In this document: positions 41,428 through 45,852 of the stretch, in pieces
How the letters are laid out: every line of letters begins with the position of its first letter
Position numbering within the stretch: position 1 is the stretch's first letter
NCBI GenBank assembly: GCA_028867755.1
Contig: JAGWFT010000001.1
Span: forward strand, 868,727 to 932,726
DNA from: Nitrososphaerota archaeon
GTDB lineage: Archaea > Thermoproteota > Nitrososphaeria > Nitrososphaerales > Nitrosopumilaceae
Direction of reading: 5' to 3'
Length of the DNA stretch: 64,000 bases
The notes under the pieces: model-generated
Told to the model about the DNA's origin: nothing
Seen by the model: the letters and a program-made list of their open reading frames with translations, nothing else
The model's database searches: none
Position numbers and translations under genes: made by a program

Positions 41428-42600
41428 TTGCTGAGGGTCTCAGAAATTCCAACAAAAAAAGCCAAACATGTAAACAAGTTTGGTAAGCTTGTTTTGGAAG
41501 ATGGCACTGTTTTTAACGGAATGGGTTTTGGTTATTCTACGACTGTTTCTGGCGAGGCAGTTTTCAATACTGGGATGACTGGCTACACTGAATCTCTAAC
41601 TGACCCGTCATACAGCGGGCAAATTCTTACCCTCACATATCCATTGATAGGAAACTATGGAATTCCAAATGTTTCAGAAAAAGACAAAGATGGTATCAAA
41701 AAATACCTAGAGTCTGATAAGATACAGGTGCGTGCACTTGTGGTACACGAGTTGTCACTTACCGCAAGCCACTGGAATCTTGCCATGACGCTAGATGAGT
41801 GGCTGTACAACGAGAAAATACCTGGGATTGCAGGAATTGATACAAGGGAGCTTACAACAAAACTTAGGACAAAAGGTGTCATGATGGCAATACTTGCCGT
41901 ATCTGAAAAAGAAATTGATGAGCAAGAACTAAAAAAACAACTTGCATCTGCCAAAAAGTATTCTGATGATGAATTTATGACTGCAGTATCCACCAAGGAG
42001 CCTCAGACATATGGTACGGAAAAAGAGTCTATTGTGGTAGTGGATACAGGTGTAAAAAATGCCATACTGCGAAATATAATAAAACTTGGGTACAAAGTAA
42101 TACGTGTTCCGTGGAACTATTCTGTAGAAAAGATTCTTGCGTATAACCCAAAAGGTATTGTAATATCAAATGGTCCTGGCGATCCGCTAAAATGTGCAGA
42201 GACCATGAACACTGCTAAAACATTGATTGACAAAAATATTCCAACACTTGGAATATGTCTTGGTGCGCAGATTCTTGGGCTTGCAGGTGGTGCTAGCACA
42301 TACAAGATAAAGTATGGCCATCGTGGACAAAACAAGTCATGCATCAATTTAGACACAAAGCAAGTTTATGTGACAAGCCAGAACCACGGATACTGCATAA
42401 ACCCAGACTCGCTAAAAAATACCAACTTCAAATTATGGTTTGAAAATACCGATGACAAGACAGTAGAAGGAATAAAGCACAAGGAAAAAAAGATAATTGC
42501 AGTCCAGTTTCATCCGGAAGCGTCACCTGGTCCTTTTGATTGTATGTTTATTTTTGAAGAGCTCAAGAAACTCATAGGGGAGGGCAATGCCAAAAAATGA
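41428..42600 (+). CDS. carA: Carbamoyl-phosphate synthase small subunit
   Basis: VFNTGMTGY.E.LTDPSY, SNGPGDP, GICLG, QNHGY, VQFHPE. Confidence 0.97.
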   Translation: MLRVSEIPTKKAKHVNKFGKLVLEDGTVFNGMGFGYSTTVSGEAVFNTGMTGYTESLTDPSYSGQILTLTYPLIGNYGIPNVSEKDKDGIKKYLESDKIQVRALVVHELSLTASHWNLAMTLDEWLYNEKIPGIAGIDTRELTTKLRTKGVMMAILAVSEKEIDEQELKKQLASAKKYSDDEFMTAVSTKEPQTYGTEKESIVVVDTGVKNAILRNIIKLGYKVIRVPWNYSVEKILAYNPKGIVISNGPGDPLKCAETMNTAKTLIDKNIPTLGICLGAQILGLAGGASTYKIKYGHRGQNKSCINLDTKQVYVTSQNHGYCINPDSLKNTNFKLWFENTDDKTVEGIKHKEKKIIAVQFHPEASPGPFDCMFIFEELKKLIGEGNAKK

Positions 42601-45600
42601 GTCGCTAAAAAAAATATTGGTTCTTGGCAGTGGGGCAATTAAAATCGGAGAAGCAGGCGAAAGTCACTAAATGACCGTCAATTCGACTACTCCGGTAGCC
42701 AGTGCCTCAAGGCCATCAAGGAAGAAGGGATACAGAGCATTCTTGTAAATCCAAACATCGCAACAATTCAGACTGACACAAGATTTGCAGATAAAGTATA
42801 TTCCATTCCAGTAAACCCACAGTACGTAGAGTCCATCATAGAGTCTGAAAGGCCAGACGGTCTGATGCTTGGGTTTGGAGGACAGACTGCCCTGAACTGT
42901 GGAGTAAAACTCGACGAGATGGGCATACTCAAAAAATATGATGTACGTGTACTTGGCACGCAGGTAGCAGGAATTCGTGCAACAGAAGACAGGCAGCTCT
43001 TCAAAGACGCCATGATAGAGTGTGGTGTTCCAGTATTGAAGAGCAGGACAGTTTACAACTTTGAGCAGGCAAAAGAGATTGCAAATGAACTTGGCTATCC
43101 TGTGATCATACGTGTTGCATATACGTTAGGTGGAAAAGGCGGAGGGGTTGCCCACAATGAAATTGAATTGCATGAAATTGTGACAAGGGGCCTTAATGCA
43201 AGTCTTGTTGGCCAGGTTCTAATCGAGGAATATGTTGGACACTGGAAGCAGATAGAGTATGAGGTCATGGCAGACTATCACGGAAACAATATCATAATTT
43301 GTAACATGGAAAATGTTCTTTCAATGAGGGTGCATACTGGTGACAATATCGTTGTGGCACCATCACAAACACTTGACAATTATGAATACCAGCTGTTAAG
43401 GTCTGCTGGACTGCGGGCAGCAAAACATGTTGGGATTGTTGGTGAATGCAACATCCAGTTTGCACTAGATGTTGATTCTGACAAGTATGTTGCAATAGAG
43501 ATGAACCCGAGACTCTCGCGTTCGTCTGCACTTGCAAGCAAGGCAACAGGATACCCGATAGCATACATGGCAGCAAAGATCGGGATGGGTTACACCCTGT
43601 CTGAGCTTGTAAATCGCATAACAAAAACCACCACTGCGTGCTTTGAGCCATCGCTTGACTATATAGTATGCAAGCATCCGCGATGGGATTTTAGCAAGTT
43701 TGAGCTTGCAAACCGAAGCCTTGGGCCTACGATGAAATCAGTAGGAGAGGTGATGGCAGTAGGAAGATGCTTTGAAGAATCATTTCAAAAGGCAATTCGA
43801 ATGCTGGAGATTGGAAATGATGGTCTTGTTGCAAACAGGAACCCTGACAAAGTTTACGATATCGAGGATCTAGAAGACAAGCTGCAAAAAGCAGATGACC
43901 GTATACTGTATCATGTTGCAGCTGCACTACGGCAGGGAATCTCAGTTGAGAGGATCTGCAAGCTTTCTGCAATTGACCCGTGGTTTATTGAAAAAATTCA
44001 AAACATTGTAGAGACAGAAAAAAATCTCAAAGAGTCCAAGTTTGAAAAAAATATTTTGCACAAGGCAAAAAAATTCGGGTTCTCAGACAAGCAGATTGGA
44101 AGACTGGTAGGAAAAGACGACATGGAGATTCGAAAGACAAGAAAAGAATTTGGAATCGTGCCAGTAGTAAAGCGAATAGACACACTTGCAGCAGAGTGGC
44201 CTGCAAAGACAAACTATCTCTATCTTACGTATGGCGGAACAACAAATGACTTTGAGGTAACCTCTGACAATGAAAAGATAGCAGTGCTTGGGGCAGGACC
44301 ATATCGCATTGGGAGCAGCGTAGAGTTTGACTGGGGAACTGTAAACATGGTCTGGGGTCTAAAAGAAAACGGCGTAAAAGAAGTCTCTGTGATAAACTGT
44401 AACCCGGAAACCGTATCAACAGACTATGACATTTGTGACAGGCTGTACTTTGAAGAGTTGACACTTGAGCGAGTCCTTGACATTGCAGAGTTTGAAAAAC
44501 TCACAGGCATTGTAACTGCAGTGGGAGGCCAGACTGCAAACAACCTTACGCCAAAGCTTGCAAAAAATGGAATCAAGATAATTGGAACGTCATACGAAGA
44601 CATTGACAGGGCAGAGAATAGGTCTCACTTTAGCAAGGTACTTGACGAGCTACACATAAGGCAGCCCCCATGGCAGGCATTCTCAAGTCTTGCTGATGCC
44701 AAGAAATTTGCGCTAAAGGTTGGCTATCCTGTTCTTGTAAGGCCGTCTTACGTGCTAAGTGGCGCTGCAATGAAGGTTGTCTGGTCCGAAGAGCAACTCA
44801 AAAGATATCTTGAGGAGGCAACCAATGTCTCGCCAGACTATCCTGTAGTGATTACAAAATTTATGCTAAATTCTCTTGAGGCCGAAGTGGATGGCGTATC
44901 TGATGGAAAAAATGTTGTAATCGGTGCTGTAATAGAACACATCGAAGGTGCAGGTGTTCACTCTGGAGACTCTATGATGTGCATCCCGCCCTGGAGTCTT
45001 TCAAACAAGGTGATTGAAACAATACTTGATTACACCAAAAAAATTGCCACTGCGTTTACGATAAAGGGGCCGTTTAATTTGCAATTTCTGATAAACTCTG
45101 ATCAGGTCTTTGTAATTGAGCTTAACATCAGGGCCTCGCGCTCTATGCCTTTTGTGTCAAAATTTGTCAGGATGAATCTTATCAATCTTGCAGCAAAGGC
45201 AGTACTTGGGAAAACTCTTCCTGTGGTTCCAAAAGACAGGTGGCGCAAGATACACAACTATGGAATCAAGGTACCACAGTTTTCATTTATGCAGCTTGAA
45301 GGCGCTGATGTCATACTTGGAGTAGAGATGCAGTCAACAGGAGAAGCCGCTTGCTTTGGCGAGAGCTTTTACGACGCACTTGCAAAGGGGCTAATATCAG
45401 TGGGATACTCTCTGCCAAAGGAAGGGTCTGTACTGATAACAGCAGGAGGCTCTGAGAACAAGGAAAAACTCTTGCAGACAGCACTCTTGCTCAAAAGTCT
45501 TGGATATACGATTCTTGCAACAGAGCACACTGCAGAATTTCTGTCAGACAAGAGGATAGGAGATGTACAAATAGTATACAAGATTAGCGAGCCTCAAAGA

Positions 45601-45852
45601 AAGCCAAACATTGCAGACATGTTGTACGAGCGCAAGATTGATTTTATAATAAATGTTCCAAGCACATCGACACTTGAAAAATATGTTGGAATGTTGTACG
45701 ACGAGTATCAGATTAGAAGAAAGGCAGTAGAGCTTGGTATACCAGTACTGATAACGACAGAGCTTGCAGACTCTTTTGCAAAGACACTAGAGTGGTTGAG
45801 GCACAATGAGACGACCAAAAAACCACTCGAGTCATACGAGTCCATTCAGTAG
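42587..45852 (+). CDS. carB: Carbamoyl-phosphate synthase large subunit, join(42587..42661,42682..45852), 1081 aa after removal of a 20-nt intron
   Basis: Exon 1 MPKNESLKKILVLGSGAIKIGEAGE; exon 2 FDYSGSQCLKAIKEEG...LMLGFGGQ, in frame with ORF 42865..45852. Confidence 0.93.
42662..42681 (+). other. Predicted 20-nt bulge-helix-bulge intron in carB
   Basis: AGTCACTAAATGACCGTCAA; bulges AAA (42660-62) and AAT (42680-82) flank the 4-bp helix GGCG/CGTC; cuts after the 2nd base of each bulge give GAA|TTC. Confidence 0.85.

What the first reader, a model, noticed from the sequence alone, without database searches (positions are those of the whole stretch)
42644..42696. Canonical bulge-helix-bulge intron inside carB: an mRNA apparently needing the tRNA splicing machinery
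Seen: the carB frame from ATG 42587 reads [25 protein letters not shown] (25 codons), then runs into AGT CAC TAA. Twenty nt later, TTC GAC TAC TCC GGT (FDYSG) begins an open frame that runs to 45852. The insert 42662-42681 both adds a stop and shifts the frame. The RNA folds as follows: outer stem 42644-50/42690-96 (AUCGGAG/CUCCGGU); irregular pairs ending in A42655-U42683; 3-nt bulge AAU (42680-82); 4-bp central helix GGCG 42656-59/CGUC 42676-79; 3-nt bulge AAA (42660-62); inner stem GUCA/UGAC with a CUAAA loop. Established: archaeal EndA cuts after the second base of each 3-nt bulge, and RtcB ligates. Those two cuts excise exactly 42662-42681 and rejoin GAA|UUC = E25-F26, matching the E. coli CarB G.ACEFDYSG motif at the same numbering. 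The well-known archaeal mRNA intron is in cbf5; I know of no report for carB, but I cannot search the literature here. Inference: this is a functional mRNA intron in arginine/pyrimidine biosynthesis, which automated annotation would call a truncated gene or pseudogene.
Basis: partly seen in the sequence, partly recalled or inferred. Interest (0 to 1): 0.95.

Follow-up and report, generated by a model that had tools for sequence, protein, structure and literature searches.

The report
tRNA-type mini-intron splitting archaeal carB
The only carbamoyl-phosphate synthase large-subunit gene (carB) of this acid-soil ammonia-oxidising archaeon (Nitrosotalea) is broken by a 20-base tRNA-type intron that almost certainly must be cut out of the mRNA; most related archaea carry it at the same spot, and I found no published report of it.

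Summary
Observation confirmed; interpretation supported by comparative evidence only.

- **The break.** carB reads 25 codons (42587-42661), then a 20-nt insert (42662-42681) with a TAA and a frameshift, then 1056 codons (42682-45852).
[quoted passage not shown] Its two predicted cuts join E25 to F26.
- **The product.** The joined N-terminus equals that of intronless relatives. F26 aligns to F26 of E. coli CarB.
- **The machinery.** This is the genome's only carB. The genome also encodes two EndA paralogs and RtcB.
- **Distribution.** An insert sits at this codon boundary in about 225 of 401 genomes of the order, including all Nitrosotalea sampled. It also occurs in one genome of another order and three of another class.
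- **Constraint.** All 114 unique inserts (17-32 nt) shift the frame or carry an in-frame stop. All fit the BHB, with many compensatory changes.
- **Exon codons.** Synonymous codons in intron-bearing genes keep an exon-exon helix that intronless genes lack.
- **RNA hint.** A transcript-like public contig 99.4% identical to a Nitrososphaeraceae genome lacks exactly its 32-nt insert. There is no RNA or protein evidence for this organism.
- **Novelty.** Papers I could search name only cbf5 as a coding-sequence BHB intron. This scan noted the carB intron before in at least 8 other genomes.

The parts
41428..42600 (+). carA (small subunit, glutamine amidotransferase); its stop overlaps the carB start by 14 nt
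   Evidence: Pfam CPSase_sm_chain and GATase; ORF list
42587..42661 (+). carB exon 1, 25 codons, [25 protein letters not shown]
   Evidence: Translation. Identical to the first 25 residues of intronless ortholog P0024. Peptide core conserved across 100 unique nucleotide variants
42644..42655 (+). 5' strand of the exon-side outer helix (h)
   Evidence: Pairs with 42683-42696. Exon-exon duplex averages -10.9 kcal/mol in intron-bearing genes and -4.65 in intronless genes
42656..42659 (+). 5' strand of the 4-bp central helix (GGCG; Gly24 codon plus the first base of Glu25)
   Evidence: Pairs with 42676-42679. C2-C4 paired in 135 of 135 unique sequences; GGUG/CACC and GCGG/CCGC are compensatory variants
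42660..42662 (+). 5' 3-nt bulge AAA; predicted cut between 42661 and 42662
   Evidence: Geometry. The bulge is A[AG]A in nearly all homologs
42662..42681 (+). 20-nt BHB intron (inner stem 42663-66/42672-75, loop 42667-71, TAA at 42668-70)
   Evidence: Orthologous inserts of 17-32 nt in hundreds of genomes
42676..42679 (+). 3' strand of the central helix (CGUC), inside the intron
42680..42682 (+). 3' 3-nt bulge AAU; predicted cut between 42681 and 42682
   Evidence: The bulge is A[AGU]U in the order and ACU in the out-of-class examples
42683..42696 (+). 3' strand of the exon-side outer helix (h), within codons F26-G30
42682..45852 (+). carB exon 2, 1056 codons plus stop
   Evidence: Translation P0001. 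Pfam CPSase_L_D1/D2/D3 and MGS. F1 aligns to F26 of E. coli CarB chain 1bxr_A

Best explanation
carB carries a 20-nt archaeal bulge-helix-bulge (BHB) intron between codons 25 and 26.

**Proposed steps (all inferred from the known tRNA pathway):**
1. In the carA-carB transcript, the end of exon 1 pairs with the 3' part of the intron to form the 4-bp central helix.
2. The intron forms its own hairpin (h').
3. Exon 1 pairs with the start of exon 2 to form the outer helix (h).
4. The heterotetramer-type splicing endonuclease, made from the two EndA paralogs, cuts after the second base of each 3-nt bulge.
5. RtcB joins GAA to UUC. This restores the invariant ...[11 protein letters not shown]... motif and a 1081-aa CarB.

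Unspliced mRNA can give only a 27-aa peptide. The intron is old and mostly inherited vertically within Nitrososphaerales, with repeated precise losses.

**Shown here:** the structure, its conservation and covariation, the need to remove the insert, and the presence of the enzymes.

**Not shown:** cleavage and ligation in this organism, and whether splicing is constitutive or regulated.
For: **Sequence and frame**
- The insert adds a TAA and a frameshift. Removing 42662-42681 joins E25 to F26.
- The joined N-terminus is identical to that of intronless ortholog P0024.
- Exon 2 starts at the equivalent of E. coli CarB F26.

**Need and machinery**
- carB is single-copy in a 99.95%-complete genome.
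- Two EndA paralogs and one RtcB are present.
- Six tRNA genes carry called introns.

**Distribution**
- An insert sits at the same codon boundary in 29 of 29 other Nitrosotalea species fetched.
- It occurs in 225 of 401 genomes of the order and 229 of 400 of the class. The reversed control pattern gave 0 hits.
- It also occurs in three genomes of another class, where the exon reads GQAAE and the central helix has changed to match, GCGG/CCGC.

**Constraint on the insert**
- Of 114 unique introns, 66 shift the frame and 48 are in frame. All 48 in-frame ones carry a stop.

**Structure**
- All 135 unique sequences fit the BHB. Inner-stem pairs are 99-100% paired with mixed UA/CG/GC/AU types.
- Sliding the 3' partner drops pairing from 98% to 14-56%.
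- On 34 diverse sequences, 94.3% of cells are paired. 57 cells changed on both sides, against 17.4 +/- 3.7 in shuffles. 0 of 500 shuffles reach the observed values.
- RNAalifold independently predicts the outer, central and inner helices.

**Exon codons**
- The exon-exon helix averages -10.9 kcal/mol in intron-bearing genes and -4.65 in intronless genes.

**RNA-like evidence for an orthologous intron**
- Contig Ga0126318_10386934 is 99.3-99.6% identical to genome G280 over 5.86 kb.
- It lacks exactly G280's 32-nt intron and has an intact 1093-aa carB.
- It spans geneX-carA-carB, from 30 nt inside the called start of geneX to 95 nt past the carB stop.
Against: - There is no RNA-seq, RT-PCR or peptide evidence for this organism.
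- I could not verify the sample type of the supporting contig with any tool. It could instead be a strain-level intronless allele.
- The BHB is not the thermodynamic optimum: -13.0 against -15.5 kcal/mol.
- The exon-side helix next to the 3' bulge is irregular: one A-U pair, then single-base bulges.
- The outermost central pair is G.A in 21 of 135 unique sequences.
- In archaea translation can begin on nascent RNA, so ribosomes might compete with folding and splicing 75 nt into the ORF.
Confidence: 0.85

Rival explanations
1. The intron is spliced by EndA/RtcB but also acts as a switch. Intron retention would be an OFF state that tunes CarB synthesis, and so arginine and pyrimidine supply, to the cell's RNA-processing capacity or some other signal. 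This adds a function to the best explanation rather than replacing it.
For: - The intron sits 75 nt into the ORF of a pathway-entry enzyme, and unspliced mRNA ends after 27 codons.
- In-frame introns always carry a stop. The 8 without an internal stop all end in UAA. This suggests selection against translating unspliced mRNA.
- The intron has persisted across an order.
Against: - Many lineages lost it precisely and apparently do well; for example only 23 of 84 genomes in genus g24 carry it.
- No ligand-binding or alternative-structure element is evident in 17-32 nt.
- Conservation of the BHB is expected for any intron that must be removed.
- Nothing tested here bears on regulation.
Confidence: 0.15
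2. The ribosome handles the insert by translational bypass (as in phage T4 gene 60) or by programmed frameshifting, so the RNA is never cut.
For: A stop codon follows soon after the break and a hairpin lies in the gap. This superficially resembles the gene 60 gap.
Against: - Bypass needs matching take-off and landing codons. The take-off codon would be GAA or GAG. The codon before TTY is CAA, CAG, UAA, AAA, AAG, CAU, UAU or CAC, and never GAR.
- Gap lengths of 17-32 nt fall in all three phases, so no single frameshift rule fits.
- What is conserved is BHB geometry, including the 3-nt bulges and the 4-bp spacing.
Confidence: 0.02
3. The gene is broken: a pseudogene, a sequencing or assembly artefact, or a CarB that starts downstream and lacks the N-terminus.
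For: - Gene callers give truncated products.
- The first start codon in the exon 2 frame is at 42865, giving 995 aa.
Against: - The same insert occurs in hundreds of independent assemblies.
- This is the only carB in a near-complete genome of an autotroph.
- The exon 1 peptide is conserved while all 25 third codon positions vary.
- A start at 42865 would delete the invariant FDYSG...NPN segment of the pre-ATP-grasp domain.
Confidence: 0.01
4. The insert is removed from RNA, but by enzymes other than EndA and RtcB.
For: No enzymology was done here.
Against: - The architecture matches the EndA substrate exactly.
- Both enzymes are encoded.
- 17-32 nt is too small for a self-splicing intron.
Confidence: 0.03

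Closest known systems
cbf5 pre-mRNA intron of Crenarchaeota (Watanabe 2002; Yoshinari 2006; Yokobori 2009, PMC2738675)
   Same: - A short BHB-type intron inside a protein-coding ORF that breaks the frame.
- Found in lineages with a hetero-oligomeric (alpha-beta)2 splicing endonuclease.
- Patchy distribution, read there as gain and loss.
- Gene callers mis-model the gene.
   Different: - The host gene is a central metabolic enzyme, not an RNA-modification protein.
- The host lineages are Nitrososphaeria (ammonia oxidisers) plus another class, not Sulfolobales or Desulfurococcales.
- Yokobori 2009 scored cbf5 of Cenarchaeum and Nitrosopumilus as intronless.
- Splicing is experimentally shown for cbf5 and not for carB.
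Archaeal pre-tRNA and pre-rRNA BHB processing by EndA and RtcB
   Same: Same motif geometry and the same predicted cut positions. The same enzymes are encoded here, and tRNA introns as short as 13 nt are called in this genome.
   Different: The substrate is an mRNA. One strand of the central helix and the whole outer helix are coding sequence, so RNA structure constrains synonymous codon choice.
BHB intron in the 5' UTR of Haloferax volcanii HVO_1309 mRNA (Schwarz 2020, PMC7714728)
   Same: An mRNA processed at a BHB by the splicing endonuclease.
   Different: That intron lies in the untranslated leader and does not interrupt the coding sequence.
Unconventional HAC1/XBP1 mRNA splicing in eukaryotes (IRE1 cleavage, tRNA ligase/RtcB joining)
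   Same: Works alike in outline. A small intron is removed from an mRNA without a spliceosome, by an endonuclease plus an RNA ligase (RtcB in metazoans), and its removal changes the reading frame.
   Different: The nuclease (IRE1) and the RNA motif (twin stem-loops) differ, and that system is a demonstrated stress switch. No regulation is shown here.

Membership tests
Archaeal bulge-helix-bulge (hBHBh') intron | Two 3-nt bulges on opposite strands separated by a 4-bp helix | tested here: met
   Bulges 42660-62 and 42680-82; helix 42656-59/42676-79, which includes one G-U. The same parse fits 135 of 135 unique homologous sequences.
Archaeal bulge-helix-bulge (hBHBh') intron | Intron-side helix h' of at least 2 base pairs closing the 5' bulge | tested here: met
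   GUCA/UGAC here; 3-8 bp in homologs. Pairs I1-I4 are 99-100% paired with compensatory changes.
Archaeal bulge-helix-bulge (hBHBh') intron | Exon-side helix h of at least 2 Watson-Crick pairs closing the 3' bulge | tested here: inconclusive
   Only A42655-U42683 stacks directly on the bulge. C54-G85 and G53-C87 follow after single-base bulges, then a regular 7-bp stem. The helix is strong overall and conserved through codon choice, but it is irregular next to the bulge.
Archaeal bulge-helix-bulge (hBHBh') intron | Cutting after the second base of each bulge yields a functional joined RNA | tested here: met
   Tested in silico only. GAA|UUC restores E25-F26. The joined N-terminus equals that of intronless P0024, and F aligns to E. 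coli CarB F26.
Archaeal bulge-helix-bulge (hBHBh') intron | Splicing endonuclease and RtcB ligase are encoded | tested here: met
   Two PF01974 loci (102.7 and 74.9 bits) and one PF01139 locus (593.6 bits). PMC5829648 reports the (alpha-beta)2 type for Thaumarchaeota.
Archaeal bulge-helix-bulge (hBHBh') intron | Structure conserved with covariation across relatives | tested here: met
   94.3% of cells paired; 57 cells changed on both sides against 17.4 in shuffles; 0 of 500 shuffles reach the observed values. RNAalifold consensus agrees.
Archaeal bulge-helix-bulge (hBHBh') intron | Demonstrated cleavage and ligation (spliced RNA, excised or circular intron) | not testable with these tools
   No RNA data for this organism. 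Indirect: a transcript-like contig 99.4% identical to genome G280 lacks exactly its orthologous 32-nt intron. Its sample type is unverified.
cbf5-type archaeal pre-mRNA intron | Lies inside a protein-coding ORF and must be removed to give the full-length protein | tested here: met
   All 114 unique introns shift the frame or carry an in-frame stop.
cbf5-type archaeal pre-mRNA intron | Host gene is cbf5 | tested here: not met
   The host gene is carB. This is therefore a new host gene for the same kind of intron, not a member of the cbf5 intron family.
Translational bypass (T4 gene 60 type) | Matching take-off and landing codons flank the gap | tested here: not met
   Take-off is GAR. The codon before TTY is never GAR in 135 unique sequences.
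Self-splicing group I or group II intron | A catalytic RNA core of hundreds of nucleotides | tested here: not met
   The inserts are 17-32 nt.

The most novel reading that the evidence does not exclude
The carB intron is more than a passive relic. Two readings remain open.

1. Intron retention is a regulated OFF state for arginine and pyrimidine synthesis in ammonia-oxidising archaea.
2. The intron is, or once was, a mobile element that repeatedly targets the invariant E|FDYSG site of carB across archaeal phyla.

For the second reading, I found the intron in two classes of one phylum. Earlier unchecked notes of this scan report it in DPANN-like and Asgard genomes, in one case next to a homing-endonuclease gene.
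Probability: 0.2. Interest if true: 0.9.

Novelty: new member of a known kind. Interest (0 to 1): 0.8.

Why it matters
- **Rarity.** BHB introns inside archaeal coding sequences were known for one gene only, cbf5 (PMC7714728). carB adds a second host gene, a central metabolic enzyme.
- **Reach.** The hosts are ammonia-oxidising archaea, which I know as very abundant in soils and oceans (general knowledge, not tested here). More than half of the order's sampled genomes carry the intron.
- **Dependence.** Arginine and pyrimidine synthesis in these organisms would depend on the tRNA-splicing machinery.
- **Codon choice.** Synonymous codons in two exons are visibly held in place by an RNA structure.
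- **Annotation.** Public CarB records for these lineages have wrong or truncated N-termini. Pipelines, metabolic reconstructions and phylogenies that use CarB are affected.
- **Evolution.** The many independent presence and absence states give a rich natural data set on gain and loss of archaeal mRNA introns.

Tried and rejected
- **Free-energy folding.** The MFE fold of 42640-42700 is not the BHB (-15.5 against -13.0 kcal/mol). I do not count this against the motif, because comparative data carry the argument.
- **Other ORF-restoring BHB introns in this genome.** The scan required a 4-bp central helix with at most one G-U, at least 4 inner pairs, an adjacent outer pair and a length of 14-120 nt. 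It gave 39,308 raw hits. After ORF filters it recovered carB plus two candidates (G000:C35:188150-188198 minus strand; G000:C24:172238-172293 plus strand). Their 'exons' do not look like one protein, so I judged them chance. Relaxed motifs would have been missed.
- **Spliced Nitrosotalea RNA in public contigs.** The joined-exon pattern hit 27 metagenome contigs. None is close to Nitrosotalea; the best are 72-79% identical to my loci over exon 2. L247 resembles G171 at the junction but is only 86% identical overall, so it is uninformative.
- **Extra 75 nt in Ca. Nitrosotalea sp. FS (L134).** This is a scaffold-gap duplication, not a second intron.
- **Literature.** Ten full-text searches found no report of a carB intron. 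Hallam 2006 (the Cenarchaeum genome paper) is not held.
- **Sample type of JGI 3300010152.** I could not verify it. The link to the metatranscriptome-only project of PMC6330096 rests on my memory of the sample name.
- **Names of the out-of-class lineages (L216-L218).** Not obtained.
Full report
**1. The observation**

The window holds carA (41428-42600; Pfam CPSase_sm_chain and GATase). The stop of carA overlaps the ATG of carB at 42587.

carB reads [25 protein letters not shown], 25 codons ending at 42661. It then runs into AGT CAC TAA. From TTC at 42682 a different frame stays open to 45852. That frame gives 1056 aa with all CarB domains.

The first start codon in the downstream frame is at 42865.

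**2. The fold**

- Outer helix: 42644-42655 with 42683-42696. It has 11 pairs, one A.A mismatch and two single-base bulges.
- Central helix: G56-C79, G57-U78, C58-G77, G59-C76.
- Bulges: AAA at 42660-62 and AAU at 42680-82.
- Inner stem: GUCA/UGAC around the loop CUAAA.

Each bulge lies 3' of its central-helix strand. This is the arrangement I know from pre-tRNA introns at position 37/38 (my knowledge of the motif). Cutting after the second bulge base removes exactly 42662-42681.

The BHB scores -13.0 kcal/mol against an MFE of -15.5. Energy alone would not single it out.

**3. The junction is the right one**

- Joining GAA to TTC gives ...[14 protein letters not shown].... Intronless relatives in the public protein set begin with exactly this. 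P0024 starts [33 protein letters not shown], identical to exon 1 plus the start of exon 2.
- The first residue of exon 2 aligns to residue 26 of E. coli CarB chain 1bxr_A. Exon 1 supplies the missing 25 residues.
- Intronless carB genes from twelve other genomes of the order read [10 protein letters not shown], or its variant G-Q-A-A-E-F-D-Y-S-G, without a break.

**4. The cell needs this gene and has the enzymes**

- The genome (1.64 Mb, 99.95% complete) has a single carB. The only other hit is a 28%-identical ATP-grasp protein.
- It encodes two splicing-endonuclease paralogs and one RtcB.
- The (alpha-beta)2 endonuclease type is reported for Thaumarchaeota and is one of the types that accept non-canonical introns (PMC5829648).
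- ARAGORN calls six intron-bearing tRNA genes, with introns as short as 13 nt.

**5. Who carries it**

Contig titles place the genome in Nitrosotalea (Nitrosopumilaceae).

| Group searched | Genomes with an insert at this boundary |
|---|---|
| Other Nitrosotalea species fetched | 29 of 29 (20-22 nt) |
| Order | 225 of 401 |
| Class | 229 of 400 |
| Other orders of the class | 1 (G465, locus L206) of the 64 genomes sampled |
| Other classes of the phylum | 3 (G720, G750, G756; loci L216-L218) |

- The search used a degenerate exon pattern with a 12-42-nt gap. The reversed control pattern gave 0 hits throughout.
- Carriers in the order include the own family (71 of 112), the large-genome family f15 (98 of 111), f10 (40 of 97) and f4 (9 of 9).
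- Several families had no hit in those searched: f7, f9, f12 and f14.
- Mixed genera exist: g24 has 23 of 84, g10 has 12 of 55 and g32 has 3 of 8.
- In g10, G043 carries the insert while G058 reads straight through.
- In the three out-of-class genomes exon 1 ends GQAAE. The central helix has changed with it to GCGG/CCGC, all Watson-Crick.
- Intron variants are lineage-specific: GUCAC/GUGAC in Nitrosotalea, GUCGC.../...CGAC in neighbouring genera, and GCUAGAU/AUCUGGC in f15. This fits mainly vertical descent with repeated precise loss. I built no tree, so gain and loss counts are open.

Some tallies include genomes marked unpublished: G010, G011, G017, G026, G032 and G292. They supply loci L009, L012, L014 and L029, and L014 is one row of alignment A1. 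No conclusion depends on them.

**6. The insert cannot be translated**

- Of 114 unique inserts (17-32 nt), 66 shift the frame and 48 are in frame. All 48 in-frame ones carry an in-frame stop.
- Eight in-frame inserts lack an internal stop, and all eight end in CGCUAA. The U at that position occurs in only 16 of 66 frameshifting inserts.
- These sequences are related, so this is a pattern and not a test. It suggests selection against reading through unspliced mRNA.
- The exon 1 peptide core (...[15 protein letters not shown]) is kept over 100 unique nucleotide variants, with all 25 third codon positions varying. Exon 1 is therefore coding.

**7. Structure is what is conserved**

- All 135 unique sequences fit the same BHB parse.
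- Central pairs 2-4 are paired in 100%. The outermost is G-C in 82, G-U in 32 and G.A in 21.
- A synonymous GGC-to-GGU change in the Gly codon is matched by G-to-A in the intron (GGUG/CACC, GGUG/CACU).
- The inner stem is 99-100% paired with mixed types: pair 2 is UA 78, CG 50, UG 7; pair 4 is GC 66, AU 62.
- Sliding the 3' partner by 1-3 nt drops pairing from 98% to 14-56%.
- RNAalifold on 34 diverse sequences predicts the outer stem, three central pairs, the AAA bulge and the inner stem. Six pairs show compensatory change.
- Counting my BHB on that alignment gives 94.3% paired cells (shuffles 87.4 +/- 0.5). It gives 57 cells changed on both sides (17.4 +/- 3.7) and a covariation score of 0.278 (0.144). 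None of 500 shuffles reaches these values.

**8. Exon codons are held by the RNA**

- Intron-bearing genes almost always read ATCGGAGARGC.GGCGAR and TTYGACTACTCYGG. Intronless Nitrosopumilus-type genes drift to ATTGGTGAAGCTGGTGAA and TTTGATTATTCTGG.
- The exon-exon duplex averages -10.9 kcal/mol in 135 intron-bearing sequences and -4.65 in 17 intronless ones.

**9. RNA-like evidence for an orthologous intron**

It returned 27 contigs. Most are distant intronless lineages.

One stands out, Ga0126318_10386934 (JGI sample 3300010152, 5860 bp):
- It is 99.3-99.6% identical to genome G280 (family f15) over its whole length.
- It lacks exactly G280's 32-nt intron (GGCGAA|TTTGAC), with 1 and 4 mismatches in the flanking 300 nt.
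- It carries an intact 1093-aa carB, where the genome yields a 1007-aa truncated call.
- It runs from 30 nt inside the upstream gene's called start, through carA, to 95 nt past the carB stop.

That looks like a polycistronic transcript. I recall this sample as part of a soil gas-exchange project. The paper on a project I take to be that one reports only amplicon and metatranscriptome sequencing (PMC6330096). The link between sample and project is from memory and unverified. A strain-level intronless allele is the alternative.

**10. Rivals**

- Translational bypass fails: the codon before TTY never matches the GAR take-off codon, and gap lengths fall in all three phases.
- Artefact or pseudogene fails on recurrence in hundreds of assemblies and on single-copy status.
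- A downstream start would delete an invariant segment of the protein.
- A regulatory role for intron retention is possible but untested.

**11. Known or new**

- Schwarz 2020 states that cbf5 is the only reported additional BHB intron in an archaeal mRNA, besides the HVO_1309 leader they describe (PMC7714728).
- Yokobori 2009 says splicing is unconfirmed for genes other than cbf5, and scores Cenarchaeum and Nitrosopumilus cbf5 as intronless (PMC2738675).
- Ten full-text searches found no carB report.
- Public Nitrosotalea CarB records are mis-modelled. Some are 1073-1075 aa with a wrong-frame N-terminus (MGQSKSEKQAKVTS..RQFDYSG). Others are 1017-1045 aa and start downstream.
- This scan has flagged the same intron in at least 8 other genomes.

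**12. Verdict**

This is a real, conserved BHB intron in carB. It is a new host gene for a known kind of archaeal mRNA intron. Splicing is strongly inferred but not shown for this organism.

Noticed in passing
window 42587-42600: The carA stop and the carB start overlap by 14 nt, which suggests translational coupling. Ribosomes would then enter carB only 75 nt upstream of the intron.
   Followed up: no
introns of loci L006-L220: Every in-frame intron carries a stop. The 8 without an internal stop all end in CGCUAA, while U at that position is uncommon in frameshifting introns (16 of 66). This may reflect selection against reading through unspliced mRNA.
   Followed up: partly
proteins P0004-P0014, P0093, P0099: Public CarB records for Nitrosotalea have a spurious wrong-frame N-terminus (1073-1075 aa) or start downstream (1017-1045 aa). 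None has the true N-terminus.
   Followed up: yes
L216:1495-1561, L217:1495-1561, L218:1495-1552 (G720, G750, G756); L206:1495-1556 (G465): The same intron site is used in another class of the phylum and in another order of the class. In the other-class genomes exon 1 ends GQAAE and the central helix is GCGG/CCGC. These lineages were not named.
   Followed up: partly
whole genome G000: ARAGORN finds only 25 tRNA genes, 6 with introns, in a 99.95%-complete genome. Many tRNA genes probably carry non-canonical introns that it misses.
   Followed up: no
G328, G396, G554: These genomes each show two intron-bearing carB 5' ends on different contigs, or twice on one strand. This could be strain mixtures, duplicates or contamination.
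   Followed up: no
L134 (Ca. Nitrosotalea sp. FS, NZ_RCMC01000282.1): A 75-nt apparent insertion in carB is a scaffold-gap duplication (repeat of [24 protein letters not shown] around an N). It is an assembly artefact, not a second intron.
   Followed up: yes
G000:C35:188150-188198 (-) and G000:C24:172238-172293 (+), outside the window: Two other BHB-like, ORF-bridging candidates came from the genome-wide scan. The joined products do not look like single proteins, so I judged them chance.
   Followed up: partly
L238 / L250 (Ga0126318_10386934) against L248 (G280:C9): A transcript-like contig spans geneX-carA-carB. This suggests a three-gene operon in that Nitrososphaeraceae relative.
   Followed up: partly
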